NCBI GenBank assembly: GCA_035506535.1
Contig: DATJPE010000063.1
Location: 63,966 to 127,965, forward strand
Reading direction: 5' to 3'
DNA: 64,000 bases
Origin: Actinomycetes bacterium
GTDB taxonomy: Bacteria; Actinomycetota; Actinomycetes; DATJPE01
A program made the position numbers and the translations under genes. Positions 38,111 through 57,470 of this stretch are shown piece after piece (position 1 is the first letter of the stretch; every line of letters starts with the position of its first letter). The notes under the pieces were generated by a model. The model was not told the DNA's origin and did not search any database. It saw only the letters and a program-made list of their open reading frames with translations.

Positions 38111-39487
38111 TCAGGTGGTCGAGGGCGGGATGTTCTGGTTGTGCCGGAACATGTTCGTCGGGTCGTACCGGTCCTTGAGCGCCTGCAACCGGGCGAACTT
38201 CTCCGGTCCGAACGCCTCGCGGACGCGGTCGATGCCCTCGTCGCCGAGGTAGTTCAGGTACGCGCCCTGCCTGGTCCACGGCTTCATGCGGGCGCCGAAG
38301 TCCTTCACCCACCCGATCTGCTCGGCGTCCATCGACGGGTCGGGAGGCCACATGTTGAGCAGGTGGATGTTGAACGGCGCCTGGCGCTGACCGAACGCCA
38401 TCGCGTCGTTCTCGACGCGGGCGACCGCTCCGCCACCGGCGACCATCAGGCTCTGGGACAACGGCGACGTGTGGGTGTTGGCGACGGCGGCGAAGGTCTC
38501 GCACGCCTCGTCGGGCAGGTCCACGAAGTCCGACGTCCAGTAGTTGCGCATGCCCGGCGCGTTGGCCCCGTCGAGCATCTGCTGCACGGCGACGTAGGGC
38601 ATGGGCTGCACGAGGTTGACGGCAGGTGGCCCCCACTCCAGCAGCGGCCGCAGGACCTCCTGCCCCTTGTCCGGGTCCCCGACGTACACCACGACGAGGC
38701 CGATGACCGGATGCCCGCGCACCGGCTCAGGAACGAAGTCGGCTGGTGGCGCGGAGATGAACGCGATGGCGGAGTTCACCTCGTCCGGGGCGACGAGCAT
38801 GAAGTCACGCCAGAACTTCAGCAGGTCGGCGCCGCGCGGCGCCGGGTGGAGGACCAGCCCGGCGAGGAGCAGCGGCGGGATCGCACGCAGGGTGAACTCG
38901 AAATCCGTGACCACACCGAAGTTGCCGCTTCCGCCCCGCAGACCCCAGAACAGCTCGGCGTTCTCCGACTCGCTGGCACGGACCACGGTGCCGTCGGCGA
39001 CGACGACCTCGCAGCTCGTGAGGCTGTCGCAGGTCAGACCGTACGTCCGCTCGAGCCAGCCGCTCCCGGAGCCGAGCGTCAGCCCGCCGACGCCAGTACT
39101 ACCGACCCGCCCGCCGGTGACGGCGAGACCATGAGCAGTGGTGGCTGCGTCGACGACCCGCCAGGTCGCACCGCCTTGCACATGCGCGGTGCTGGTGACC
39201 GGGTCGACATCGACGCCGTCGAGAGGGCGGAGGTCGATGACGACGCCGCCGTCGTTGACGCCCGCACCGGTGACGCTGTGGCCACCGCCGTAGACGGACA
39301 CGTCCGCACCGCCGTCGCGCGCGACGTTGACCGCCGCGACGACGTCCGCCGTCGAGGCACAGCGCAGGATCGCGGCCGGCCGTCTGTCGACCATGCCGTT
39401 GAAGACGTGACGAAGCTCGTCGTAGTCCGCGTCCCCCGGTCGGACGACGGCCCCGCCGAAGCCGGCGAGGTCGAGGGTTGAGGTCAT
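38111..39487 (-). CDS. FAD-binding oxidoreductase, berberine-bridge-enzyme-like (FAD_binding_4 plus BBE domain)
   Basis: 458 aa. FAD-binding PCMH motifs are present, and the C-terminal ...YLNYLGDEG...LKDRYDPTNMFRHNQNIPP is a BBE domain. Confidence 0.75.
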   Translation of the reverse strand: MTSTLDLAGFGGAVVRPGDADYDELRHVFNGMVDRRPAAILRCASTADVVAAVNVARDGGADVSVYGGGHSVTGAGVNDGGVVIDLRPLDGVDVDPVTSTAHVQGGATWRVVDAATTAHGLAVTGGRVGSTGVGGLTLGSGSGWLERTYGLTCDSLTSCEVVVADGTVVRASESENAELFWGLRGGSGNFGVVTDFEFTLRAIPPLLLAGLVLHPAPRGADLLKFWRDFMLVAPDEVNSAIAFISAPPADFVPEPVRGHPVIGLVVVYVGDPDKGQEVLRPLLEWGPPAVNLVQPMPYVAVQQMLDGANAPGMRNYWTSDFVDLPDEACETFAAVANTHTSPLSQSLMVAGGGAVARVENDAMAFGQRQAPFNIHLLNMWPPDPSMDAEQIGWVKDFGARMKPWTRQGAYLNYLGDEGIDRVREAFGPEKFARLQALKDRYDPTNMFRHNQNIPPSTT

Positions 39488-45622: not shown

Positions 45623-46783
45623 GTGCCCGCTCGTGACGCCGTCATCGTCGACGCCGTACGCACCCCCGTCGGCAAGCGTGGAGGGTCGCTGGCCGCGGTC
45701 CACGCCGTGGACCTGTCCGCGCACGTCCTGGGCGCGCTGGTGGAGCGGACCGGGATCGACCCCGCGGTCGTCGACGACGTCATCTGGGGCTGCGTGCAGC
45801 AGGTGGGCCAGCAGAGCTTCAACGTGGGCCGCAACGCGGTGCTCGCCGCTGGCTGGCCCGAGTCGGTGCCGGGGACGACGATCGACCGGCAGTGCGGGTC
45901 CTCCCAGCAGGCCGTCCACTTCGCCGCCGCGGGCCTGGTCGCCGGACACTACGACGTGGTCGTCGCCGGGGGCGTCGAGATGATGACCGCGATCCCGCTC
46001 GGCGCCGCCGCGCGTGACCCCGAGCTCGGGGAGCCGTACGGCCCGCTCGTCGACGCCCGCTATGGCGTGCCGTTCCACCAGGGACTGGGCGCGGAGATGA
46101 TGGCGGAGAAGTGGGGCTTCACGAGGGCGGAGCTCGACGAGTTCGCCGGCGCCTCGCACGCCAAGCTCGCCGCGGCGGTCGACGAGGGTCGTCTGGCCGG
46201 CCAGATCACGCCGGTACGCCTCCCCGAGGGTGGCACGCTCTCCGCCGACGAGGGCCTGCGCCGCGGCACGACGCCGCAGACGCTGGCCGGGCTGCGGCCG
46301 GCGTTCAAGCCCGACGGGGTCCTGCACGCCGGCAACTCCTCGCAGATCAGCGACGGGTCCGCGGCCGTCCTCCTGACAACCTCGGAGAAGGCTCGTGAGC
46401 TGGGCTTGACGCCGCTGGCCCGGGTGCACACGGCCGTCCTTGCCGGCGACGACCCGGTGATGATGCTGAGCGCGCCGATCCCGGCGACCCAGCGGGCGCT
46501 GGCCCGGGCCGGCCTCGGCATCGGCGACATCGACGTCTTCGAGGTCAACGAGGCCTTCGCGCCGGTGCCGATGGCCTGGCTCGCCGAGACCGGAGCCGAC
46601 CCGGCGCGCCTGAACCCGAACGGCGGCGCGATCGCCATCGGGCACCCGCTCGGCGCGTCGGGGGCTCGGCTGATGACCGCGCTGGTCCACGAGATGGCCG
46701 ACCGCGGGCTGCGTTACGGCCTGCAGACCATGTGCGAGGGCGGCGGCATGGCCAACGCGACCATCCTGGAGCGCCTCGCCTGA
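45623..46783 (+). CDS. Acetyl-CoA C-acyltransferase (thiolase)
   Basis: 386 aa. The thiolase active-site Cys is in DRQCGSSQQA and the C-terminal motifs are NEAFA and GHPLGASGAR. Confidence 0.9.
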   Translation: MPARDAVIVDAVRTPVGKRGGSLAAVHAVDLSAHVLGALVERTGIDPAVVDDVIWGCVQQVGQQSFNVGRNAVLAAGWPESVPGTTIDRQCGSSQQAVHFAAAGLVAGHYDVVVAGGVEMMTAIPLGAAARDPELGEPYGPLVDARYGVPFHQGLGAEMMAEKWGFTRAELDEFAGASHAKLAAAVDEGRLAGQITPVRLPEGGTLSADEGLRRGTTPQTLAGLRPAFKPDGVLHAGNSSQISDGSAAVLLTTSEKARELGLTPLARVHTAVLAGDDPVMMLSAPIPATQRALARAGLGIGDIDVFEVNEAFAPVPMAWLAETGADPARLNPNGGAIAIGHPLGASGARLMTALVHEMADRGLRYGLQTMCEGGGMANATILERLA

Positions 46784-46804
46784 CCCCACCCGGCGCCATG
46801 TTCT

Positions 46805-46934
46805 GACTGAACGCGGCGTTCCCCCGGACCTATTGGAGGAATGTCGCGTTCAGTCGAAGCACGCGGGGGCCGAGGAGCCGACTCAACGCGGCGTTCAGTC
46901 GGACCTATTGGAGGAATGCCGCGTTCAGTCGGAA
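46805..46934. repeat. Tandem pair of double-palindrome repeats (copies E1 46805..46858 and E2 46880..46934) in inverted orientation relative to copy A
   Basis: GACTGAACGCGGCGTTC-ccccGGACCTATTGGAGGAATG-tCGCGTTCAGTCGAA and GACTcAACGCGGCGTTC-AGTCGGACCTATTGGAGGAATG-CCGCGTTCAGTCGGAA, separated by 21 bp. They lie in the convergent spacer between the thiolase and the SDR gene. Confidence 0.8.
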
Positions 46935-46993
46935 ACCGGCGGGGGCGCTTCCCGTCGCACCGGGAGAAGCGGGGCGGGGGCTGGGCGGGACGG

Positions 46994-47755
46994 TCAGCGG
47001 GGGCCCATCCGGATGGCCCCGTCGAGGCGGATCGTCTCGCCGTTGAGCATCGGGTTGCGCACGATGTGCTCGACGAGGGCGGCGTACTCCGAGGGGTCGC
47101 CCAGCCGGGACGGGTGCGGCACCTGCGCCTCGAGGGAGGCGATCGCCTCCGGCGGCAGCGAGGCGAACAGCGGGGTGTTGAACAGCCCGGGCGCGATGGT
47201 GACGACCCGGATCTTGTGCTGGGCGAGGTCGCGCGCCACCGGCAGGGTCAGGCCCACGACGCCGCCCTTGGATGCCGAGTACGCCGCCTGCCCGATCTGG
47301 CCGTCGAACGCCGCCACCGAGGCCGTGTTGACGATGACCCCCCGCTCGCCGTCGACCTCCGGCGTCGCGGCGATGCGCTGGGCAGCCAGCCGGATCACGT
47401 TGAAGGTGCCGATGAGGTTGACCTGGATGACGCGTGCGAAGCCGTCGAGCGGGAACGGCCCCTCCTTGCCGAGCGTTCGGATCGCGTTGGCGATCCCGGC
47501 GCAGTTGACCGCGATCCGCAGCGTCCCCAAGGACTCGGCGGCGTCGAGCGCAGCCCGTACGTCGTCCTCGGCCGTGACGTCACCCGGGGCGAACAGCGCC
47601 CGGTCGCCGAGCGCAGCGGCCTCGGTCGCGCCGGCCGAGGACGGCAGGTCCAGCAGGACCACCCCGGCCCCCTCGGCGTGCAGCCGCGTGGCGGTGGCCA
47701 GGCCGAGCCCGGAGGCCCCGCCCGAGACGACGGCGACGCTGCCCTCGATCTTCAT
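46994..47755 (-). CDS. SDR family oxidoreductase (3-hydroxyacyl-CoA dehydrogenase type-2-like)
   Basis: 253 aa from ATG 47755 ([22 protein letters not shown]...). It has the TGxxxGxG-type NAD motif and the catalytic YxxxK (YSASK). Confidence 0.8.
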
Positions 47756-47885
47756 GGCGCTCTCCTCGATCGATTCCGCCAGGCGCAGCCCGGCCCTCTG
47801 ACCGGGCAGTCTCGCAGCCGCCCCGCGCGGGCGACGGCGCGGGGTTGGCATGATCGGGCGGAGGACACCCGCACACGAGGAGCCC

Positions 47886-49037
47886 ATGCCTGCGACCGAC
47901 TCGCCCACGCCCCAGGGGCCGCTGCGCGGCGTGCGGGTGATCGAGCTCGCGGGCATCGGACCGGGACCGTTCGCGGCGATGGTGCTCGCCGACCTCGGCG
48001 CGAGCGTGCTGCGGATCGACCGCCCGGGCCCCCAGCCCATCGAGCCCGAGGGTGCCGTCATCAACCGCGGTCGGCGCTCCGCCGTCCTGGACCTCAAGCA
48101 CCCGAGGGCCGTCGACGCCCTCCTGCGCCTCGCGGACCGGGCCGACGTCCTGCTCGAAGGCCTGCGCCCCGGGGTGACGGAACGCCTCGGCATCGGACCG
48201 GACACCTGCCTCGACCGCAACCCGCGCCTGGTCTACGCCCGGATGACCGGCTGGGGCCAGGACGGGCCGATGGCCCTGCGGGCCGGCCACGACCTCGGCT
48301 ACATCGCCCGCGCGGGCGCCCTGCACGGCTTCGGCCGGGCGGGCGGACCGCCGCAGTTCCCGGGCAACCTGCTCGGGGACTTCGGCGCCGGCGGGATGCT
48401 CGCCGCGCTCGGCATCTGCGCCGCCCTGGTCGAGCGCGGGTCGTCAGGCCGAGGTCAGGTCGTGGACGCCGCCATCGTCGACGGCGTCGCATCCCTGCTC
48501 ACCATGCCGTTGATGCTGCTCGCACAGGGGCACTGGCTCGACGAGCGCGGTGTCAACCTCCTCGACGGCGGCGTCCCCTGGTACGACGTCTACCAGACCG
48601 CCGACGACGAGTGGGTCGCCGTCGCCGCCCTGGAGCCGCCGTTCTACGCGGCGCTGCTGGCCGGCCTCGGGCTGGCGGACGTCCCTGACCGGGCAGACCC
48701 CGCGAACTGGCCCGAGTTGCGCCGCCGCTTCGCCGAGCGCTTCCGGGAGCGCACCCGCGAGGAGTGGGCCGGCCTGTTCGCCGGCACCGACGCGTGCGTG
48801 GAGCCGGTGCTGTCACTCACCGAGGCGACCCGGGACGAGCACCTGCTGGCCAGGGGCACCTACGTGCTGCGCGACGGCACGCCCGAACCCGCCCCCGCGC
48901 CCCGCTTCTCCCGCACCCCTGGGGTCCTGTCCTCCCCGCCGCCGCTCCCTGGCGAGCACACCAGGGAGGCGCTCACCGACTGGGGTCTCGGCGACGTCGA
49001 GGACCTGATCGCCGACGGGGCCGCGGTCCAGGCCTGA
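47886..49037 (+). CDS. CoA-transferase family III protein (CaiB/BaiF; alpha-methylacyl-CoA racemase-like)
   Basis: The N-terminus [25 protein letters not shown] and the family III fold are typical. The preferred start is ATG 47886. Confidence 0.75.
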
Positions 49038-49044
49038 CCGGGGC

Positions 49045-49713
49045 TCAGTGCCCGTCGACGCCGACGACGCGGATCCCGGAGCGGGTCTTGTACTTCTTGT
49101 TGATGTTGATCAGAGCAGCGGTCAGCGGCTCGAGCTGGCGCGCCAGCCGCAGCGAGCCGGCATCGATGCCCGCCCGTCCGGTCACCGACCGCGCGAGCTC
49201 GATGGCGACGGCCTTCGCCTGCTCGTCGTCGCCGCACACGAGCACGTCCTCGTGGTCGAGCAGCTCGGCCTCGCCCCACAGGCTGACCGCCGAGAGGTGG
49301 TGGAAGGCGCCGACCAGCCGGGCGCTCGGCACGATGCGCTGCGCCTCCTCGGCGGCGCTGCCGTCGGGGACCGGCAGGCCGTACGAGCCCTGCTTGTCGA
49401 AGCCCAACGGGTTGACGCAGCTGATGACGACCTTGCCGGCCAGCACCTCGGCAAGCGAGGCCACCAGCTCGTCGTGGCCGGCATAGGGGACGGCGATGAG
49501 CGCGACCTCGGCCTCCGCGACCGCCACGGCGTTGGCCGCCCCCGTCACCGCCGCCGACCCGTCGAGCCGCTCGTTGATCTGCGCGGCCGTCTCCTCGGCG
49601 CGCTCGGCGGCGCGCGAGCCGATCACCACCCGGTGGCCCGCCCGGGCGAAGCGGTAGGCGAGCCCCTTGCCCTGCGGGCCGGTCCCGCCCACGACCGCGA
49701 CGTACTGGCCCAC
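49045..49713 (-). CDS. NADPH-dependent F420 reductase (NpdG/Fno family)
   Basis: 222 aa. The N-terminus VAVVGGTGPQGKGLAYRFARAGHRVVIGSR has the dinucleotide-binding fold typical of F420:NADP oxidoreductases. Confidence 0.7.
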   Translation of the reverse strand: MGQYVAVVGGTGPQGKGLAYRFARAGHRVVIGSRAAERAEETAAQINERLDGSAAVTGAANAVAVAEAEVALIAVPYAGHDELVASLAEVLAGKVVISCVNPLGFDKQGSYGLPVPDGSAAEEAQRIVPSARLVGAFHHLSAVSLWGEAELLDHEDVLVCGDDEQAKAVAIELARSVTGRAGIDAGSLRLARQLEPLTAALININKKYKTRSGIRVVGVDGH

Positions 49714-49823
49714 CGACGCCTCCTCGGCTCGCTCCGCCCCTGGATGGACGCAGCATGGCAGCCGGTGAGGGACCGCCTCCGACCGGGTGCGGCGGCTAGA
49801 GTCGCGGACAGGGAGGCGCGGCG

Positions 49824-50978
49824 GTGAAGCGAGGGCTCTTCGAGGCGGACCACGAGGTCTTCCGCGACGTGGTGCGCGAGTTCGTGGCCCGCGAGGTCCT
49901 GCCCCACCAGGAGCGCTGGGACCGCGAGCACATCATCGACCGCTCGACCTGGCTCGCGGCGGGCAAGCAGGGCGTCATCGGGCTGCCGGTCCCCGAGCGG
50001 TACGGCGGTGTCGGGACCGACGACTTCCGCTTCCGCTGCGTCGTCGCCGAGGAGCTCGCCCGGGTCGGCGCGTCCTCGCTCAGCTCGGGCTTCGGCCTGC
50101 AGGACGACATCGCGCTGCCGTACCTCACCGACCTCGGGACCGAGGAACAGCGCGCCCGGTGGCTGCCCGGGGTTGCCTCCGGCGAGCTGATCCTCGCCAT
50201 CGCGATGACCGAGCCGGGCGCGGGCAGCGACCTGCAGGGTGTGCGGACCACGGCGAGGCGCGACGGCGACGAGTGGGTGATCAACGGCAGCAAGACGTTC
50301 ATCACCAACGGCATCCACTCCGACCTGGTCATCGTCGTGGCGCGGACCGACGCCGGCGCCGGCGCCCGCGGCTTCAGCCTGCTCGCCGTCGAGCGCGGGA
50401 CCCCCGGCTTCAGCCGTGGGCGACAGCTCGAGAAGCTCGGCCTGGTCGCGCAGGACACCGCGGAGCTGTTCTTCGACGAGGTGCGCGTCCCGGCCGCGAA
50501 CCTGCTCGGGACGGAGGGCTCCGGTTTCGTCCATCTCATGGAGCGACTGCCACGGGAACGCATGTCGATCGCCTACGCCGGCCTCGCGGGCGCCCGGGCG
50601 GCGCTGGACTGGACGGTGGCCTACACCCGCGAGCGCAGTGCGTTCGGGCGGCCGCTCGCGGCGTACCAGAACACCCAGTTCGAGCTGGCCGAGCTGGTGA
50701 CCGAGGTGGACGTCCTCGAGGCCTTCATGGACAAGGCGGTGCTGGAGCTCAACGACGGCACCCTGACCGCGGTGGACGCGGCGAAGGCGAAGCTGTGGGC
50801 GACCGAGGTCCAGGGGCGGGTGGTCGACCGCTGCCTGCAGCTGTTCGGCGGGTACGGCTACATGCTCGAGTACCCCATCGCGAGGGCCTGGGCCGATGCG
50901 CGCGTGCAGCGGATCTACGGCGGGACGTCGGAGATCATGAAGACGATCATCGCCCGCGACCTCACCGGGCTGCGTTAG
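49824..50978 (+). CDS. Acyl-CoA dehydrogenase
   Basis: 384 aa. The ACAD N, middle and C domains are present, with the catalytic Glu in the C-terminal ...YGGTSEIMKTII region. Confidence 0.9.
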   Translation: MKRGLFEADHEVFRDVVREFVAREVLPHQERWDREHIIDRSTWLAAGKQGVIGLPVPERYGGVGTDDFRFRCVVAEELARVGASSLSSGFGLQDDIALPYLTDLGTEEQRARWLPGVASGELILAIAMTEPGAGSDLQGVRTTARRDGDEWVINGSKTFITNGIHSDLVIVVARTDAGAGARGFSLLAVERGTPGFSRGRQLEKLGLVAQDTAELFFDEVRVPAANLLGTEGSGFVHLMERLPRERMSIAYAGLAGARAALDWTVAYTRERSAFGRPLAAYQNTQFELAELVTEVDVLEAFMDKAVLELNDGTLTAVDAAKAKLWATEVQGRVVDRCLQLFGGYGYMLEYPIARAWADARVQRIYGGTSEIMKTIIARDLTGLR

Positions 50979-50988
50979 CCGCGACGCG

Positions 50989-51810
50989 ATGAGCGAGACG
51001 CCCGCCGATCACGAGACCGGCTTGCTCGATCTGCTCGACCTCGAGCAGATCGAGGAGGACCTGTTCCGCGCGAACTTCCTCGTCCAGGAGGAGTTCGCGC
51101 TCTATGGCGGACAGGTCGCCGCGCAGGCGCTCCTCGCGGCGGGGAGCACCGTCGACCGCGAGCGCCAGCCGCACTCCCTGCACGGCTACTTCCTGCGCGG
51201 CGGCGACCCCCTGCGGCCCACCGTGTTCCAGGTGTTCCGGGACCGCGACGGCGGGTCGTACTCGGCCCGGCGGGTCATCGCGATCCAGCAGGGGGCGGTC
51301 ATCTTCAACATGGCCTGCTCGTTCCACCGGCCCGAGGAGAGCCCGAGCTGGCAGGTCGAGCAGCTGCCGGCCACGGCGCCGCCGGACGGGCTCGAGCCGG
51401 GTCGCTTCCACCGACTCTTCTCGGTGGAGCACCGGATGCCCGAGCAGCCGTACGACCGGGGCTGGCCGACCCGCTTCTGGGCGCGTGTCAGCGTGCCGCT
51501 GCCCGACGACCCGCTGATCCACGCCTGCGCGCTGACCTACCTGTCGGACGTCTCGACCGGCGTCCTGCCGGCCGAGGACGGCTCGGCGGGACCGGGGTCG
51601 AGCATCGACCACGCGGTGTGGTTCCACCGCCCGGTCGACATGACGGACTGGACGCTGACCGAGTACCACCCGCGGATCGCGACTGGCGGTCGCGGCTGGT
51701 ACACCGGCTCGGTGTTCACCGCCGACGGGACGCTGGTGGCCAGCCTCACCCAGGAGGCGCTCTTCCGCGGCGGGCGGCCCGCCTGGGACCGGAGACCTAC
51801 GACCGGCTGA
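50989..51810 (+). CDS. Acyl-CoA thioesterase II (TesB-like double hotdog)
   Basis: 273 aa. The TesB pattern LLDLLDLEQIEEDLFRA...HSLHGYFLRGGD is present. It lies 11 nt downstream of the ACAD gene. Confidence 0.8.
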   Translation: MSETPADHETGLLDLLDLEQIEEDLFRANFLVQEEFALYGGQVAAQALLAAGSTVDRERQPHSLHGYFLRGGDPLRPTVFQVFRDRDGGSYSARRVIAIQQGAVIFNMACSFHRPEESPSWQVEQLPATAPPDGLEPGRFHRLFSVEHRMPEQPYDRGWPTRFWARVSVPLPDDPLIHACALTYLSDVSTGVLPAEDGSAGPGSSIDHAVWFHRPVDMTDWTLTEYHPRIATGGRGWYTGSVFTADGTLVASLTQEALFRGGRPAWDRRPTTG

Positions 51811-52775: not shown

Positions 52776-53494
52776 CGGGCATGGCGGACCTCGACGCCGT
52801 GACGTCGGCCAAGAAGGCGGCGGCGGACTACGCCGTCGACACCTTCGTGGCTTCGGGGATGCGGGTCGGGCTCGGTACCGGCTCGACCGCGGTCTGGGCC
52901 GTCCGCCGGGTCGGGGAGCGGTTCGCGTCGGGGGCGCTCGCCGACGTGCTCGCCGTACCGACGTCGGAGGCGACCGCGGCGGAGGCGGCGCGGTGCGGCG
53001 TACCGCTGACCTCCCTGGACGACCACCCGGTCCTCGACGTGACCATCGACGGCGCCGACGAGGTCGACCCCGAGCTGGACTGCATCAAGGGCGGCGGCGG
53101 GGCGCACCTGCGGGAGAAGCTCGTCGCGCAGGCGAGCCGGCGGCTGGTGATCGTGGTCGACGACTCCAAGCGGGTGCCCGTGCTCGGGACGGCGTTCCCG
53201 CTGCCGGTCGAGGTGGTGCGCATGGCGCGCGTACCGGAGACGCTGTACGTGCGCTCGCTCGGCTTCGACGTGACGTGGCGCCGACGCGACGGGGCGCCCT
53301 TCGTGACCGACGAGGGCAACTGGATCCTCGACGTGGCCACCGGCCCGATCCTCGACAAGGACGGGCTGCTCGACCGGTTGCTGCGACGAGCCGGCGTCGT
53401 CGAGGTCGGCCTGTTCCTCGGGATGGCCTCCGACCTGGTCGTCGCCCACCCCGGCCGCGACGTCGAGCACCTGACCCGAGCCCCGAGCACCTGA
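52772..53494 (+). CDS. rpiA: Ribose-5-phosphate isomerase A
   Basis: Motifs GLGTGSTAV, DGADEVD and KGGGGAHLREK. GTG 52772 overlaps the GNAT stop; the alternative start is ATG 52781. Confidence 0.85.
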   Translation: MTGMADLDAVTSAKKAAADYAVDTFVASGMRVGLGTGSTAVWAVRRVGERFASGALADVLAVPTSEATAAEAARCGVPLTSLDDHPVLDVTIDGADEVDPELDCIKGGGGAHLREKLVAQASRRLVIVVDDSKRVPVLGTAFPLPVEVVRMARVPETLYVRSLGFDVTWRRRDGAPFVTDEGNWILDVATGPILDKDGLLDRLLRRAGVVEVGLFLGMASDLVVAHPGRDVEHLTRAPST

Positions 53495-53508
53495 CCCGCC
53501 CCTCCCTT

Positions 53509-53564
53509 CCGAATGAACGCGGCGTTCAGTCGGACCTATTGGAGGAATGCCGCGTTCATTCGAA
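53509..53564. repeat. Double-palindrome intergenic repeat, copy F (near-consensus)
   Basis: CCGAATGAACGCGGCGTTC-AGTCGGACCTATTGGAGGAATG-CCGCGTTCATTCGAA. It lies in the convergent spacer between rpiA and the bfaB-like gene and is flanked by C-rich and G-rich runs. Confidence 0.85.
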
Positions 53565-53575
53565 AACGGCGGGGG

Positions 53576-54856
53576 TCAGAACCAGGGGCGGAGGGGGACG
53601 CCGGCTTGGCCGGGGGGGAACTCGGGGGCGGCCTTGCCGATCTTGCCGCCCGGCTCGCAGCGGACGGCCAGCACCTGGTGGAGCTCGATGCGGCGGGTGT
53701 CGAAGCCGAGTCGCGACGCCGCCATGTACAGCCGCCACACCCGGGCCTTGGCGATGCCGACCTCGCGCACCGCCTCCTCCCAGTGCTCCTCGAGGTTGGC
53801 GCCCCAGTCGCGCAGCGTCAGCGCATAGTGCTCGCGCAGGTTCTCCTCGTGGCGCACCTCGAAGCCGTTGTCCTGGATGGCCGAGATGATCGTGCCGACG
53901 CCCTCGAGCTCACCGTCGGGGAACACGTAGCGGTTGATGAAGCCGCCCGCGGTGTTCTTCTCCTTGGTCGTGGGCCGAGTGATGCAGTGGTTGAGCAGGC
54001 GGCCCTCGGGACGCAGCCGGGACGCGAGGAAGGAGACGTACGACGGCAGGTTCGCCAGCCCGATGTGCTCGGTGAGCCCGATCGAGGAGATGGCGTCGAA
54101 GCGCTGCTCCGGGACGTCCCGGTAGTCGAGGTAGCGCACCTCCGCGAGGTCCTTCAGCCCGGCCTCGTGGATCGCGTCCTGGGCCCACTCGGCCTGCCGC
54201 TCGGACAAGGTGACGCCGAGGGCCCTCACGCCGTACTCCCGGGCAGCGTGGATGACCATGCCGCCCCAGCCGCAGCCGACGTCGAGCAGCGTCATCCCCG
54301 GCTCGAGGCCGAGCTTTCGCGCGACGAGGTCGAACTTCTCGTACTGCGCCTCCTCGAGGCTGGCCTCCGCCTTCGGGTAGCACGCGCAGGTGTACGCCAT
54401 CGAGGGGCCGAGCACCCAGCGATAGAAGCGGTTAGAGACGTCGTAGTGGTGCGAGATGGCCTCGGCGTCACCGCGCCGGGAGTGGCGCCGGACGAGACGG
54501 GACCGTACGTGCTCCTCGCGCGGCAACGGCGGCCGCCGGAAGGCGCTCACCCCGCCCGCGGCCTTGACCACCTCCGTGCGCTGCGCCCACGAGAGGTCCC
54601 CGATCTGGCCCTCCGTCAGCAGCTTGAGCGCGGTGTACATGTCGCCGTGCACCTCCAGATGCCCAGTGACGTACGCCCGCGCGAGGCCGAGGTCCCCCGG
54701 CGAGGTGATGATGTAGCGCAGCGCCAGCGGCGAGCGCACCTCCAAGGTGATGGCCGCGTCCTCGGGTCCGGACCGTGAGCCGTCGTACGCCGTGAACGCC
54801 ACCGACCCGCCGGCCGCGCCGCCGATGACCCGCTCGAAGACCTCCGCCAACCCCAT
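53576..54856 (-). CDS. Cyclopropane-fatty-acyl-phospholipid synthase family SAM-dependent methyltransferase (BfaB/TmsB-like, 10-methylene fatty acid forming)
   Basis: 426 aa. The CFA-synthase fold has the SAM motif LLDVGCGWGGMVIHAARE. It sits immediately downstream of a FAD oxidoreductase, which is the bfaA-bfaB (tmsA-tmsB) arrangement. Confidence 0.7.
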   Translation of the reverse strand: MGLAEVFERVIGGAAGGSVAFTAYDGSRSGPEDAAITLEVRSPLALRYIITSPGDLGLARAYVTGHLEVHGDMYTALKLLTEGQIGDLSWAQRTEVVKAAGGVSAFRRPPLPREEHVRSRLVRRHSRRGDAEAISHHYDVSNRFYRWVLGPSMAYTCACYPKAEASLEEAQYEKFDLVARKLGLEPGMTLLDVGCGWGGMVIHAAREYGVRALGVTLSERQAEWAQDAIHEAGLKDLAEVRYLDYRDVPEQRFDAISSIGLTEHIGLANLPSYVSFLASRLRPEGRLLNHCITRPTTKEKNTAGGFINRYVFPDGELEGVGTIISAIQDNGFEVRHEENLREHYALTLRDWGANLEEHWEEAVREVGIAKARVWRLYMAASRLGFDTRRIELHQVLAVRCEPGGKIGKAAPEFPPGQAGVPLRPWF

Positions 54857-54863
54857 CGCTGCT

Positions 54864-56231
54864 CTACCTCCGTCTCACGGTCTTCTCGTAGAGGTCGAGG
54901 AGCCGCCCATCCGGGTCGTAGTCCTTCTTGACCAGGTGGTAGCCCTCGCCGTTGTACGTCGCCCAGAACTCCTCTTCCGGATAGAACGCCGTCGAGTACA
55001 GCGACTTGTGGCCCCCGAGCTCGGCGACCTTCTCCTCGATGCGGCGGTTGTGGAAGCCCTCGACCTGTCCGGGCGGCAGGTCGACGGCGGACCAGAAGCC
55101 GACGTTGGTCCAGGTGACGTCGTGGTCGATGTCGAACAGGGTCCACGACGGTGAGCCAGCCCGCGCGCGCATCGGGCAGACCCAGACCGGGCTGATGCGG
55201 ATCTCGCGGTGGAAGAACTCCAGGAACTCGGGCAGGCGCTGGACCGGCACCTCGACGTCTTGCACCACCGGCTCCTGCGCGGGCCGTCCGAGCCGGGCGT
55301 CCAGCCGCGCCTTCCACTGGTGGCGTCGCTCGAAGCCGATCACCTTCCAGTAGACGTCAGAGCGCAGGAACCGCTTGGGCACCAGCGGACGTACCCACGG
55401 CTTCTGCACCTGCAGGGCGCGGGAGCACCAGAACCAGTCGGTGTCCCAGCGCCAGAGGTAGTCGCGGACCCTCAGGTGGTCGACCGCCTTCGCCTGGATG
55501 GAGCGGTAGTAGATGCGGTTACCCGTGTAGTCGGACACCGCCGGGACGCGCTGCGCCCACGAGCCGACGCTCAGGTACATCTCGCGCGGCCCGAACACCG
55601 TGCCGTCGAGGAAGTCGACGGCCGAACCGGCGTACGTGCGCTGCGCGACCGCCGACGCGACCGCGTCGGCGAACGCGTCCGCGTCCTCGAAGCGGTGGTG
55701 GTGCAGCTCGACGTAAGGGTGGACCTGCTCCAGGTCGATGCGCAGCCGCAGGGCGTACCCGAGCGTGCCGTAGGAGTTCGGGAACGCCCGGAACAGCTCC
55801 GCGTGCTCGTTGGTCGGCGAAGCCGTCACGACGCGTCCGTCCCCGGTGAGCACGTCCATCTCCAGGACCGACTCGTGGGGGAAGCCGCTGCGAAACGACG
55901 TCGACTCGATCCCGACGCCGGCGACCGCACCGCCGAGGGTGATGGTCTTCAGCTCGGGGACGACCAGCGGCATGAAGCCGTACGGCAGCAGCGCGTCGAC
56001 CAGGTGCTCGTAGGTCGTCATCCCCAGGACGTCCGCGGTACGCCGTTCCGGGTCGACCGAGAGCACTCCGTCGAAGCCGGTGACGTCCAGCCGAGGCACG
56101 GTGTCGGAGGTGCGCGTCCGGAACAGGTTCGAGGTCCGCTTCGCGAGGCGTACCGGCTCGCCGGGCGGGATGGCGGCGTACTGCGCCTGCAGGTCCCTGA
56201 CCCGGCCGGCGTAGTCGACGGTCGCGCTCAT
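54864..56231 (-). CDS. FAD-binding oxidoreductase (BfaA/TmsA-like candidate 10-methylene-acyl reductase)
   Basis: 455 aa. It has the FAD_binding_4 PCMH domain (ITLGGAVAGVGIESTSFRSG). It ends 8 nt before the methyltransferase gene. Confidence 0.65.
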   Translation of the reverse strand: MSATVDYAGRVRDLQAQYAAIPPGEPVRLAKRTSNLFRTRTSDTVPRLDVTGFDGVLSVDPERRTADVLGMTTYEHLVDALLPYGFMPLVVPELKTITLGGAVAGVGIESTSFRSGFPHESVLEMDVLTGDGRVVTASPTNEHAELFRAFPNSYGTLGYALRLRIDLEQVHPYVELHHHRFEDADAFADAVASAVAQRTYAGSAVDFLDGTVFGPREMYLSVGSWAQRVPAVSDYTGNRIYYRSIQAKAVDHLRVRDYLWRWDTDWFWCSRALQVQKPWVRPLVPKRFLRSDVYWKVIGFERRHQWKARLDARLGRPAQEPVVQDVEVPVQRLPEFLEFFHREIRISPVWVCPMRARAGSPSWTLFDIDHDVTWTNVGFWSAVDLPPGQVEGFHNRRIEEKVAELGGHKSLYSTAFYPEEEFWATYNGEGYHLVKKDYDPDGRLLDLYEKTVRRR

Positions 56232-56479
56232 CGCGGCGGCCTCGGCGCGCGCAGCGGGCGCTGGCCGCCCGGTTGCTGCGGCGGCTTCATGACGCGCAGG
56301 CCGATGGCGACCATGACGCCGGCGATGACGAGGTCGGACACGACGACGAGCCAGGACAGCCCCTTGATCGCCTGCGCGATCGCGAGCCCGACGGTCAGCA
56401 CGGCCATGACGAAGAACACGGGCGCGAGGTAGCGCTGCCGCGAGGGCTCCTGCGGCGGGGGCTTCGGGGCGGCGCTCAC
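56228..56479 (-). CDS. Small membrane protein (83 aa, two TM helices), probably co-transcribed with the bfaA-like gene
   Basis: MSAAPKPPPQEPSRQRYLAPVFFVMAVLTVGLAIA...VIAGVMVAIGL. Its stop overlaps the downstream gene's start (ATGA). Confidence 0.4.
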   Translation of the reverse strand: MSAAPKPPPQEPSRQRYLAPVFFVMAVLTVGLAIAQAIKGLSWLVVVSDLVIAGVMVAIGLRVMKPPQQPGGQRPLRAPRPPR

Positions 56480-56573
56480 GACTCGAGCCTACCGAGGCGA
56501 CGCCCTCGCCACCCCGGTGCTCCTCACCTCCGCGGCGATGACCGGCCCGGCGCCGCCGACGGCGCGGGCACGG

Positions 56574-57470
56574 TCAGGCGCTGGGCACCGCCGCGCGCTG
56601 CAGGCGCGCGACCGCGTCGTCGTCCACGCCGGCGAAGAAGCCGCCCACGACGTCCTCGACGTGGGCGAAGGAGTCCGCGCAGAACAGCACCGGCTGGTAG
56701 TGGGTGATGTCGTAGGTCTGCACCCCCATCCGCGCGACCTCCAGCGGGCGCAGGTGGGCGGCACGGAACTCCTGGATCTCCCCGTAGCTGGACAGCAGCC
56801 CGGCGCCGTACGTCTTCACGCCGTCGGGCTCGCGCAGCACCCCGAACTCCAGGGAGAACCAGAACACCTTGGAGACGAACTCCAGCGCCTCCGCCGACTC
56901 GACGCGGCGCGCGGCCTCCCCCGCCACCTGGTAGAGCGCGGCGAAGCGCGGTGACGCCAGGCAGTTCGCGTGCCCCACCACCTCGTGCACGACGTCGGGC
57001 TCCGGGGTGTACAGCGGGACCGAGTGGTGGCGGATGTACTGCGTGGAGTGGAACACCCGGTCGGCCAGCGAGCCGTAGAAGACGAGGAGGGGGACCAGGC
57101 CGGCCGCGGGGACGTACCGGAATCCGGTGAGCGGCTGCAGCAGATCGCTCACCTCGTCGAGCTGCGGGACGTGGTCCTCCGGCAGCCGCAGCGCCGCTTT
57201 GCCCTCGAGGTACTCCCGGCAGGCCAGCGTCTCGTGCAGCTCGTGCAGGTGCGCGCACGCCACCCGCCACACCTCGTGCTCCTCGTCGGTGTACTCGGCG
57301 TGCGGGATCGGGTCACCGGGGCGCCACGCCAGGGCGAGGGCCGCGATCGCGTTGCGGCGGGAGCGGTACACCGGGTCGGTCGCGCCCGGGTGGTCGGCGG
57401 CGAGGTGCACCTCGACGTCGCCGTCGGCGCTGCGGGTGACCGGCGCGTACAGCTGGGCTTCCTCGAACAT
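56574..57470 (-). CDS. phhA: Phenylalanine 4-monooxygenase (biopterin-dependent aromatic amino acid hydroxylase)
   Basis: 298 aa from ATG 57470 (MFEEAQLYAPV...). It has the Biopterin_H fold with iron ligands H...H (HEVVGH) and the conserved PEPDVVHE and FWFSLEFG regions. Confidence 0.8.
   Translation of the reverse strand: MFEEAQLYAPVTRSADGDVEVHLAADHPGATDPVYRSRRNAIAALALAWRPGDPIPHAEYTDEEHEVWRVACAHLHELHETLACREYLEGKAALRLPEDHVPQLDEVSDLLQPLTGFRYVPAAGLVPLLVFYGSLADRVFHSTQYIRHHSVPLYTPEPDVVHEVVGHANCLASPRFAALYQVAGEAARRVESAEALEFVSKVFWFSLEFGVLREPDGVKTYGAGLLSSYGEIQEFRAAHLRPLEVARMGVQTYDITHYQPVLFCADSFAHVEDVVGGFFAGVDDDAVARLQRAAVPSA

What the first reader, a model, noticed from the sequence alone, without database searches (positions are those of the whole stretch)
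53576..56479. Probable 10-methyl (tuberculostearic-type) fatty acid operon: small membrane protein, FAD oxidoreductase (BfaA/TmsA-like), CFA-synthase-like methyltransferase (BfaB/TmsB-like)
A CFA-synthase-family SAM methyltransferase immediately downstream of a FAD_binding_4 oxidoreductase is the two-gene signature established for 10-methylstearate synthesis in actinomycetes. The methyltransferase makes 10-methylene from oleoyl lipid and the FAD enzyme reduces it. An 83-aa two-TM protein is translationally coupled upstream and may be an uncharacterised third component.
Basis: partly seen in the sequence, partly recalled or inferred. Interest (0 to 1): 0.5.

Follow-up and report, generated by a model that had tools for sequence, protein, structure and literature searches.

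The report
bfaAB 10-methyl fatty acid operon
This is an ordinary copy of the known two-enzyme actinobacterial operon (bfaA-bfaB) that turns oleate-type membrane lipids into 10-methyl (tuberculostearic-type) fatty acids; its only unusual feature is a small, undescribed membrane protein gene placed in front of it in one uncultured lineage.

Summary
Three minus-strand genes lie at the stated coordinates. They are an 83-aa two-helix membrane protein (56228-56479), a 455-aa FAD_binding_4 protein (54864-56231) and a 426-aa CMAS-family methyltransferase (53576-54856). The first two overlap by ATGA.

The FAD protein is 62% identical over its full length to the characterised Thermomonospora curvata BfaA. 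The methyltransferase is 59% identical to T. curvata BfaB and only 30% identical to E. coli Cfa. In a tree it falls inside the BfaB clade (100/100 bootstraps), away from cyclopropane synthases, CmaA1 and UmaA. Of 80 related genomes, 79 keep bfaB directly after bfaA.

One correction is needed. UfaA1 is not the equivalent enzyme; the M. tuberculosis orthologues are Rv3719/Rv3720.

The small protein is real, with a coding signature and an invariant C-terminal PLRAPRPPR motif that is kept despite synonymous changes. It is not a general third component. It occurs in a single BfaA subclade and in 1 of the 80 related loci, and characterised bfaAB pairs work without it.

Verdict: a new member of a known kind, of low interest. 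It comes with a minor undescribed small-protein family of unknown role.

The parts
54864..56231 (-). bfaA: FAD-dependent 10-methylene-acyl reductase (455 aa). It has a VAO/PCMH-type FAD_binding_4 N-domain and a family-specific C-terminal domain containing the DYLWRWDTDWFWCSR motif.
   Evidence: Pfam PF01565. It is 62% identical over 454 aa to T. curvata BfaA and 53-55% to the M. smegmatis, M. tuberculosis Rv3719, R. opacus and C. glyciniphilum BfaA proteins. The AlphaFold model has pLDDT 85.8 and pTM 0.88; the nearest solved folds are cytokinin oxidase and DprE1 at TM 0.60-0.65 and 15-20% identity.
53576..54856 (-). bfaB: SAM-dependent phospholipid acyl-chain delta-9 C-methyltransferase that forms the 10-methylene intermediate (426 aa). 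It has the CFA-synthase architecture with an N-terminal extension.
   Evidence: Pfam CMAS E 7.2e-96. It is 59% identical to T. curvata BfaB, 53-57% to the mycobacterial and Rhodococcus BfaB proteins, 46% to C. glyciniphilum BfaB and 30% to E. coli Cfa. It falls in the BfaB clade 100/100 and is sister to T. curvata BfaB 97/100. The bicarbonate-site residues C157, E263, H290, I292 and Y344 are conserved. It scores below every curated NCBIfam cyclopropane or mycolic cut-off.
56228..56479 (-). Small two-TM membrane protein (83 aa), first cistron of the operon. It belongs to an undescribed clade-restricted family with an invariant C-terminal PLRAPRPPR motif.
   Evidence: GC3 is 0.96. The model shows a helical hairpin, helices 16-39 and 43-64. 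A profile search found 32 homologous clusters of 70-88 aa, none with a Pfam domain. In 11 of 13 distinct loci the gene lies directly upstream of bfaA.
56231..56257 (-). Codons for the invariant C-terminal PLRAPRPPR tail of the small protein. The last base is shared with the bfaA ATG.
   Evidence: The motif is invariant or nearly so in 20 family members. The codons differ synonymously between loci, for example CTG/CTT/TTG/CTA for Leu and CGA/CGC/CGG/AGG for Arg.
56486..56491 (-). -10-like hexamer TAGGCT lying exactly 6 nt upstream of the GTG start. This suggests a leaderless transcript beginning at the small gene's start codon.
   Evidence: TAGGCT (TAGGAT in L085) sits 6 nt before the start codon in the window and in L001, L081, L083, L084, L085, L086, L088 and L089. 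Its function is inferred from the TANNNT -10 consensus of actinobacterial leaderless promoters (own knowledge). The sigma-70 scan found nothing.
53491..53579 (.). Long GC-rich hairpin filling the convergent bfaB/rpiA intergenic region and including both stop codons. It looks like a bidirectional terminator.
   Evidence: The RNA fold gives -52.9 kcal/mol, z = -6.4, with 0 of 200 shuffles folding as well. The inverted repeat arms are 53507-53527 and 53545-53565. Similar hairpins lie after bfaB in L081, L083 and L084. There is no T-tract, so the terminator scan did not flag it.

Best explanation
The locus is a bfaAB operon of an uncultured actinomycete (public names HTY72577.1 and HTY72576.1, annotated only generically). 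BfaB uses S-adenosylmethionine to methylate the cis-delta-9 double bond of oleoyl or palmitoleoyl chains already esterified in membrane phospholipids, giving a 10-methylene acyl chain. BfaA, a VAO-fold flavoprotein, then reduces the exocyclic methylene with NADPH via FAD, giving a saturated 10-methyl chain of the tuberculostearic type. The three genes are transcribed together on the minus strand, probably as a leaderless mRNA starting at the small gene, and transcription ends at a hairpin shared with the convergent rpiA. Translation of bfaA is coupled to the small ORF through an ATGA overlap. The small two-TM protein is a clade-specific addition. It is a real membrane protein with a cytoplasmic Pro/Arg tail. 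Its most likely role is a non-essential accessory of the pathway, such as a membrane partner for the peripheral enzymes, or simply a co-transcribed membrane protein. Shown here: orthology, gene order, conserved residues, and the fact that the small gene is coding and where it occurs. Inferred: the chemistry (from characterised orthologues), the leaderless start, the terminator, and any role for the small protein.
For: Full-length identity is 62% to T. curvata BfaA and 59% to T. curvata BfaB. That pair makes 10-methylstearate in E. coli and yeast, and its BfaA needs NADPH. The BfaB clade is supported 100/100 and is separate from three solved CFA synthases, CmaA1 and UmaA. PDB scores are 211 bits or less to any cyclopropane or mycolic enzyme, against 488 bits to T. 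curvata BfaB. bfaB follows bfaA in 79 of 80 species loci, and the eightieth contig ends 44 nt after bfaA. All five bicarbonate-site residues are conserved. Deleting the M. smegmatis orthologue cfa (MSMEG_6284) removes tuberculostearic acid from its membrane phospholipids, and its upstream gene MSMEG_6283 encodes the FAD protein. For the small gene: GC3 of 0.96, the ATGA overlap, a conserved -10-like box 6 nt upstream, and peptide-level conservation.
Against: No product was measured, because the organism is an uncultured MAG. Seven of the eleven bfaAB operons tested gave no activity in E. coli, so orthology does not guarantee activity in a heterologous host. Which chain lengths are methylated (C16, C17 or C18) is unknown. 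No residue is known that separates methylene-forming from cyclopropane-forming CMAS enzymes, so product assignment rests on orthology and on the partner reductase. Whether the genome makes delta-9 unsaturated acyl chains could not be checked.
Confidence: 0.9

Rival explanations
1. The small protein is a true third subunit. It would be a membrane tether or regulator that recruits the peripheral BfaA/BfaB enzymes through its invariant cytoplasmic PLRAPRPPR tail.
For: It lies directly upstream of bfaA in 11 of 13 distinct loci, even though the genes further upstream vary (Biopterin_H, DUF3105, Usp, AA_permease). The tail is invariant and under peptide-level selection. The positive-inside rule places both termini in the cytoplasm. 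[quoted passage not shown] Loci carrying the small gene form one exclusive BfaA clade.
Against: It is absent from 79 of 80 other bfaAB loci. Characterised pairs work alone in E. coli and yeast, and the other 'third genes' (bfaC, polyketide cyclase) were dispensable. In L086/L087 the gene persists with an intact motif but no bfaAB within 4 kb. In L085 a convergent nitroreductase separates it from bfaA. The association could be inherited synteny within a narrow lineage.
Confidence: 0.25
2. The small ORF is a cis-acting regulatory leader. It would be a membrane-inserted nascent chain whose C-terminal R-A-P-containing motif stalls the ribosome and so tunes translation of the overlapping bfaA, like the ApcA/ApdA monitoring substrates.
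For: [quoted passage not shown] R-A-P is invariant here, sits 6 residues from the stop, and the stop overlaps the bfaA start.
Against: The motif is R-A-P-R, not RAPP, RGPP or RAPG. In ApdA and ApdP only Pro at the A-site supports arrest, and ApcA G105R impaired arrest. The motif stays intact in L085-L087, where no co-directional gene follows. The distance to bfaA ranges from -4 to about 63 nt across loci. Both points fit a trans-acting protein better.
Confidence: 0.06
3. The methyltransferase is a cyclopropane fatty acid synthase or a mycolic-acid modifying enzyme, and the FAD protein next to it is unrelated.
For: Pfam names the domain 'mycolic acid cyclopropane synthetase'. The best NCBIfam hit is CfaB, and the bicarbonate site used for cyclopropanation is intact.
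Against: All NCBIfam cyclopropane and mycolic models score far below their cut-offs (315.6 against 650, 237.6 against 400, 175.3 against 390). Identity is 30% to E. coli Cfa but 59% to BfaB, and the tree is 100/100 for BfaB. BfaB enzymes also keep the bicarbonate site. The pairing with BfaA is essentially universal.
Confidence: 0.03

Closest known systems
Thermomonospora curvata BfaA/BfaB, earlier called TmsA/TmsB (Blitzblau et al. 2021, PMC7791843)
   Same: The gene order bfaA then bfaB, the protein lengths (455/455 aa and 426/420 aa) and the domain content all match. Identity is 62% and 59% over full length, and the window methyltransferase is the sister of T. curvata BfaB in the tree.
   Different: The window operon has an extra small membrane-protein gene overlapping the bfaA start. 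The organism is an uncultured MAG with no lipid data.
Mycobacterial operon: M. chlorophenolicum BfaA/BfaB (Machida et al. 2017), M. smegmatis MSMEG_6283/cfa MSMEG_6284 (Prithviraj et al. 2023) and M. tuberculosis Rv3719/Rv3720
   Same: The same two-gene unit, at 53-57% identity. In these organisms it is shown genetically and heterologously to make tuberculostearic acid.
   Different: Mycobacteria have a divergently transcribed polyketide-cyclase-like neighbour instead of the small TM gene.
E. coli, L. acidophilus and A. aeolicus cyclopropane fatty acid synthases (6BQC, 5Z9O, 7QOS)
   Same: The same CMAS fold with an N-terminal lipid-binding extension, action on phospholipid-bound cis double bonds, and the same bicarbonate-site residues.
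   Different: Identity is only 30-40%, and they form a separate clade. Their product is a cyclopropane ring, and they have no partner reductase.
M. tuberculosis UfaA1 and UmaA, and the mycolic-acid methyltransferases CmaA1/2, PcaA and MmaA1-4
   Same: The CMAS catalytic domain.
   Different: The solved mycolic enzymes and UmaA are about 290-320 aa and lack the N-terminal extension; they score 118-138 bits. UmaA and CmaA1 form a separate clade (100/100). UfaA1 and UmaA are stated to be distinct from bfaB and are not the in vivo tuberculostearic acid methyltransferase. UfaA1 itself was not available for the tree.
TmpB/TmpA 10-methylpalmitate operon of Desulfobacter and Marinobacter
   Same: The same overall chemistry, a CMAS methyltransferase plus a flavoprotein reductase.
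   Different: The gene order is reversed, and TmpA belongs to a different flavoprotein family (geranylgeranyl-reductase-like), not FAD_binding_4. The window reductase is clearly the BfaA type.
ApcA/ApdA/ApdP and other RAPP-type arrest peptides (for the small ORF only)
   Same: A small membrane protein encoded just upstream of the gene it might regulate, with an invariant R-A-P near the C-terminus.
   Different: The residue after RAP is Arg, which does not support arrest in the tested peptides. The motif also persists where no downstream gene follows.

Membership tests
BfaB (10-methylene-forming phospholipid acyl methyltransferase) | CMAS-family SAM methyltransferase with the long CFA-synthase-type N-terminal extension | tested here: met
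   PF02353 covers residues 126-395 of 426. The protein aligns from residue 1 with characterised BfaBs.
BfaB (10-methylene-forming phospholipid acyl methyltransferase) | Groups with characterised BfaBs rather than with CFA synthases or mycolic-acid methyltransferases | tested here: met
   An NJ tree on 218 ungapped columns supports the BfaB split 100/100 and places the window protein sister to T. curvata BfaB 97/100. UfaA1 was not included.
BfaB (10-methylene-forming phospholipid acyl methyltransferase) | Conserved Cfa bicarbonate-site residues, the criterion used by Blitzblau et al. | tested here: met
   C157, E263, H290, I292 and Y344 align with E. coli C139, E239, H266, I268 and Y317.
BfaB (10-methylene-forming phospholipid acyl methyltransferase) | Encoded immediately downstream of bfaA in one operon | tested here: met
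   There is a 7-nt gap on the same strand. The same arrangement occurs in 79 of 80 related loci.
BfaB (10-methylene-forming phospholipid acyl methyltransferase) | Produces 10-methylene acyl chains from delta-9 unsaturated phospholipids | not testable with these tools
   This needs expression and GC-MS.
BfaA (FAD/NADPH 10-methylene reductase) | FAD_binding_4 (VAO/PCMH) flavoprotein of about 455-485 aa with the family-specific C-terminal half | tested here: met
   PF01565 covers residues 26-137. Alignment to six BfaAs is full-length at 53-62% identity. The model shows a two-domain VAO-type fold.
BfaA (FAD/NADPH 10-methylene reductase) | NADPH-dependent reduction of the 10-methylene intermediate | not testable with these tools
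   This is known only for T. curvata BfaA extracts (Table S3).
Cyclopropane fatty acid synthase (NCBIfam PRK11705 / CfaB / CPFASynBruc) | Score at or above the curated equivalog cut-off | tested here: not met
   Scores are 237.6 against 400, 315.6 against 650 and 224.1 against 600 bits.
Mycolic-acid cyclopropane/methyl transferases (NCBIfam mycolic_MTase) | Score at or above the cut-off, with an architecture of about 290 aa lacking the N-extension | tested here: not met
   The score is 175.3 against 390 bits. The protein is 426 aa with an N-extension.
RAPP-type translation arrest peptides (small ORF) | C-terminal R-[AG]-P-P, RAPG or RAGP with Pro (or Gly) at the A-site | tested here: not met
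   The motif is R-A-P-R-P-P-R. Arg at the A-site impaired or abolished arrest in ApcA, ApdA and ApdP.
RAPP-type translation arrest peptides (small ORF) | Ribosome stalling demonstrated on the motif | not testable with these tools
   This needs in vitro translation or toeprinting.

The most novel reading that the evidence does not exclude
The small two-TM protein with the invariant cytoplasmic PLRAPRPPR tail is a clade-specific third component of the 10-methyl fatty acid pathway. It would be either a membrane dock or regulator that positions the peripheral BfaA/BfaB enzymes on the bilayer or, less likely, an R-A-P-type nascent-chain sensor that couples bfaAB translation to the state of the membrane. 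Either would be the first dedicated accessory factor for mid-chain lipid methylation.
Probability: 0.25. Interest if true: 0.45.

Novelty: new member of a known kind. Interest (0 to 1): 0.2.

Why it matters
The result upgrades two generically annotated MAG proteins ('FAD-binding oxidoreductase' and 'class I SAM-dependent methyltransferase') to a specific pathway assignment that has experimental precedent. It predicts that this uncultured soil actinomycete makes 10-methyl-branched membrane lipids. By my own knowledge, that is the class used as actinomycete PLFA biomarkers; in mycobacteria it controls membrane compartmentalisation. The survey also shows how uniform the bfaA-bfaB unit is across Actinomycetota. 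The only new element is a family of about 30 small membrane proteins with an invariant Pro/Arg tail, fixed in front of bfaA in one lineage. It is a modest lead for anyone studying how peripheral lipid-modifying enzymes are targeted or regulated.

Tried and rejected
- **Single-sequence searches with the small protein.** They found almost nothing: 1 hit and 6. Only a 4-sequence profile recovered the family.
- **Metagenome DNA scan for the back-translated PLRAPRPPR-stop.** It returned 75 loci, but 74 were chance GC-rich matches in non-TM frames. Only L137 was a real family member.
- **Library scans of the small protein.** Pfam and NCBIfam and PADLOC gave no significant family. At lenient thresholds 17 of 20 members touch PF07332 (actinobacterial Holin-X), but all are far below the 28.4-bit cut-off with a best E-value of 0.001. 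I treat this as TM-hairpin composition.
- **Other reported 'third genes'.** No similarity was found to C. glyciniphilum BfaC.
- **Promoter, terminator and RNA scans.** The sigma-70 and T-tract terminator consensus scans found nothing in 53300-56800. Rfam found no riboswitch or other RNA family there.
- **Arrest-peptide reading.** I considered it and downgraded it because the motif is RAPR rather than RAPP or RGPP, and because it persists without a downstream gene.
- **Paralogues and transfer.** The window has no second CMAS gene. The other FAD_binding_4 gene, at 38111-39487, is a BBE-type oxidase unrelated to BfaA. GC content of the locus is about 0.70-0.74, like the rest of the window, so horizontal transfer is not indicated.
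- **A technical correction.** Biopython's get_support gave meaningless clade supports because of rooting. I recomputed them as bipartitions.
Full report
**Observation**

The minus strand carries three consecutive ORFs at exactly the coordinates given:
- 56228-56479, 83 aa, GTG start
- 54864-56231, 455 aa
- 53576-54856, 426 aa

The first two overlap by ATGA, and the second and third are 7 nt apart. Pfam assigns FAD_binding_4 (PF01565, E 1.2e-11) to the 455-aa protein and CMAS (PF02353, E 7.2e-96) to the 426-aa protein. The small protein matches nothing.

In a 72% GC window spurious ORFs are everywhere, so I checked the coding signal. GC at codon positions 1/2/3 of the small ORF is 0.75/0.51/0.96, the same pattern as bfaA, bfaB and the neighbouring housekeeping genes.

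**Identity of the two enzymes**

Blitzblau et al. 2021 (PMC7791843) deposited the protein sequences of bfaA/bfaB pairs from six actinomycetes, several of which they tested by expression, and I took these from their Additional file 3. BLASTP results:

| Window protein | T. curvata | Other BfaA/BfaB | E. coli Cfa |
|---|---|---|---|
| FAD protein | 62% over 454 aa (BfaA) | 53-55% to M. smegmatis, M. phlei, M. tuberculosis Rv3719, R. opacus, C. glyciniphilum | not applicable |
| Methyltransferase | 59% over full length (BfaB) | 53-57% to mycobacterial and Rhodococcus BfaB, 46% to C. glyciniphilum BfaB | 30% |

Against solved structures, the best methyltransferase hit is the L. acidophilus CFA synthase at 211 bits. 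UmaA, CmaA1/2, PcaA and MmaA1/2/4 score 118-138 bits over the catalytic domain only.

I built a neighbour-joining tree on 218 ungapped columns. It includes six BfaBs, three CFA synthases, UmaA and CmaA1. The window protein falls inside the BfaB clade in 100 of 100 bootstraps and is sister to T. curvata BfaB in 97 of 100.

All curated NCBIfam cyclopropane and mycolic models score far below their cut-offs. The five residues that bind bicarbonate in E. coli Cfa are conserved as C157, E263, H290, I292 and Y344. Blitzblau et al. used this site as a selection criterion for bfaB.

**The reductase**

No BfaA structure is solved. By sequence, the PDB gives only distant FAD-domain matches to cytokinin dehydrogenase and DprE1. 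An AlphaFold model built from 36 homologues is confident (pLDDT 85.8, pTM 0.88). It is a two-domain VAO/PCMH-type flavoenzyme whose nearest solved folds are again cytokinin oxidases and DprE1, at TM 0.60-0.65 and 15-20% identity. For the T. curvata orthologue, reduction of 10-methylene chains requires NADPH and does not work with NADH (Table S3).

**Synteny**

A scan of one genome per GTDB species with a BfaA profile returned at least 600 loci. The best 80 span Actinomadura, Amycolatopsis, Saccharothrix, Microbispora, Gordonia, Nanopelagicales and many MAGs. In 79 of them a BfaB homologue starts within about 130 nt after bfaA. The remaining contig ends 44 nt after bfaA. The protein database holds more than 8000 BfaA homologues. 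The unit is very common and very uniform.

**Function and mechanism (inferred from characterised orthologues)**

BfaB methylates the cis-delta-9 double bond of phospholipid-bound acyl chains with SAM, giving a 10-methylene chain. BfaA reduces that to a 10-methyl chain using NADPH. In M. smegmatis, deleting the BfaB orthologue cfa (MSMEG_6284) abolishes tuberculostearic acid in PI, PE and PIMs and disturbs membrane compartmentalisation. Its upstream gene MSMEG_6283 encodes the FAD protein. The same authors state that cfa, rather than the two previously proposed genes, is the enzyme responsible. Blitzblau et al. likewise say the bfa genes are distinct from ufaA1 and umaA, and they list Rv3720/Rv3719 as the M. 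tuberculosis pair.

**The small membrane protein: real but clade-restricted**

It is predicted to be a helical hairpin, with helices 16-39 and 43-64 at pLDDT above 90. Basic residues lie on both cytoplasmic ends.

A single-sequence search found only a 99% identical copy, and an exhaustive phmmer run found 6 hits. The contigs of the closest BfaA homologues each carry an ORF of 70-88 aa in the same position: L081 (83% BfaA identity), L082 (76%) and L001 (71%). A profile built from these four retrieved 32 protein clusters, all 70-88 aa and none with a Pfam domain.

The family is poorly conserved in the helices. It ends in an essentially invariant PLRAPRPPR: P75, L76, R77, P79 and R80 are invariant, and A78, P81, P82 and R83 are at least 90% conserved. 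The codons under the motif differ synonymously between loci, for example Leu CTG/CTT/TTG/CTA and Arg CGA/CGC/CGG/AGG. In L082 the motif is followed by 17 more residues. Conservation is therefore at the peptide level and is not a by-product of the bfaA ribosome-binding region.

**Association of the small gene with bfaAB**

There are 13 distinct small-gene loci: the window, L001, L081, L082, L083/84, L085, L086/87, L088/89, L137, L165, L166, L167 and L168.
- In 11 of them, bfaA and bfaB follow directly, at distances from a 4-nt overlap to about 63 nt. The genes further upstream differ (Biopterin_H, DUF3105, Usp, an amino-acid permease).
- In L085, a convergent nitroreductase gene sits between the small gene and bfaA.
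- In L086/87, no bfaAB lies within 4 kb, yet the motif is intact.

In the other direction, a six-frame motif search and an upstream-ORF scan of the 80 species loci found the small gene only in L001. In a BfaA tree, the eight loci that have both an intact bfaA and the small gene form one exclusive clade. The simplest reading is a single acquisition in one uncultured actinomycete lineage.

Characterised bfaAB pairs work alone in E. coli and yeast, and two other lineage-specific 'third genes' were dispensable. The small protein is therefore not a general component of the pathway. It may be a local accessory, for example a membrane dock for enzymes that act at the membrane without being integral to it. 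It may also be only a co-transcribed membrane protein. I put the accessory reading at about 0.25.

**Arrest-peptide idea**

Small membrane or secreted proteins with C-terminal RAPP, RGPP, RAPG or RAGP motifs upstream of diverse genes are translation-arrest peptides, including in Actinomycetota. The invariant R-A-P here invites the comparison. However, the next residue is Arg. In ApdA and ApdP only Pro at that A-site position supports arrest, and ApcA G105R impaired arrest. The motif also survives where no co-directional gene follows. I rate this reading at about 0.06.

**Operon boundaries**

TAGGCT (TAGGAT in L085) lies exactly 6 nt upstream of the small gene's start codon in the window and in eight further loci. 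L082 has TAGGCC at a different spacing. This fits the TANNNT -10 box of actinobacterial leaderless promoters (own knowledge) and supports the annotated GTG start. The E. coli-type promoter scan found nothing.

Downstream, the 81-nt gap between the convergent bfaB and rpiA stops folds into a long hairpin, with dG -52.9 kcal/mol and z -6.4. Relatives L081, L083 and L084 have similar hairpins. It has no T-tract, so it is terminator-like only by inference. Rfam finds no riboswitch or other RNA family in 53300-56900.

**Surroundings**

On the bfaB side lie rpiA, a GNAT acetyltransferase, acyl-CoA thioesterase II and an acyl-CoA dehydrogenase, all on the opposite strand. On the other side lie a biopterin-dependent aromatic amino-acid hydroxylase, a MobA-like transferase and a FUSC-family membrane protein. 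None is part of the unit. The window has no second CMAS gene. GC content is typical of the window. The sequence is identical to a public MAG contig of 305 kb ('Actinomycetes bacterium'). There the two proteins are named only 'FAD-binding oxidoreductase' (HTY72577.1) and 'class I SAM-dependent methyltransferase' (HTY72576.1).

**Verdict**

The finding is correct and ordinary. It is a new member of the well-characterised bfaAB 10-methyl fatty acid operon, with confidence 0.9 for that function. The one item not described in the papers I searched is the small PLRAPRPPR-tailed membrane protein family fixed in front of bfaA in one lineage. Its role is open. Overall interest is 0.2.

Noticed in passing
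window 56228-56479 (-); also L001 3737-3949, L081 150-401, L082 4738-5004, L083/L084/L085/L086/L088/L165/L166/L168 from 4001, L167 99-317, L137: An undescribed family of about 32 protein clusters, 70-88 aa, each a two-TM hairpin. The C-terminal PLRAPRPPR is invariant and kept through synonymous codon changes. A mostly conserved Asp sits in TM2 (D48 in the window). No Pfam family matches.
   Followed up: yes
window 56486-56491 (-) and the equivalent positions in L001, L081, L083-L086, L088 and L089: A conserved TAGGCT box lies exactly 6 nt upstream of the small gene's ATG/GTG. This suggests a leaderless mRNA, so the first cistron would be translated without a Shine-Dalgarno sequence.
   Followed up: partly
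window 53491-53579: A hairpin of about 89 nt (dG -52.9 kcal/mol, z -6.4) spans the whole convergent bfaB/rpiA intergenic region and includes both stop codons. Related hairpins, partly similar in sequence, follow bfaB in L081, L083 and L084. There is no T-tract.
   Followed up: partly
L085 4228-5313; L086/L087 4226-5377: In one subclade a convergent nitroreductase gene follows the small gene. In L085 bfaAB comes after it. In L086/87 bfaAB is missing from the 4 kb downstream, yet the small protein's motif is intact. This hints at a function that does not depend on adjacency to bfaA.
   Followed up: partly
family alignment A4 (20 small proteins): 17 of 20 members give weak sub-threshold matches to PF07332 (putative actinobacterial Holin-X), with a best E-value of 0.001 and all far below the 28.4-bit cut-off. 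This is probably TM-hairpin composition rather than homology.
   Followed up: no
L083, L084, L085, L088, L166, L168 (ENA ERZ250395xx contigs): On these contigs bfaA and bfaB are called as several short fragments, and tblastn shows frame changes within otherwise 70-85% identical sequence. This looks like indel errors in the assemblies rather than pseudogenes.
   Followed up: no
window 45623-51810 (+): A run of same-strand acyl-CoA metabolism genes lies a few kb from the bfa operon: thiolase, family III CoA-transferase, acyl-CoA dehydrogenase and acyl-CoA thioesterase II. An F420-type NADP oxidoreductase on the opposite strand interrupts the run. They are not part of the same transcription unit as the bfa genes.
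   Followed up: no
window 38111-39487 (-): A second FAD_binding_4 protein carries a BBE domain (berberine-bridge-type oxidase). It is unrelated to BfaA beyond the FAD domain.
   Followed up: no
L023, L024, L031 (Actinomadura/Spirillospora), upstream of bfaA: A different conserved upstream gene encodes a protein of about 180-230 aa with the motif RVSDAERD...L.EAYAEGRLDHDEFD followed by TM segments, on the same strand as bfaA. It is another lineage-specific membrane-protein neighbour of bfaAB.
   Followed up: no
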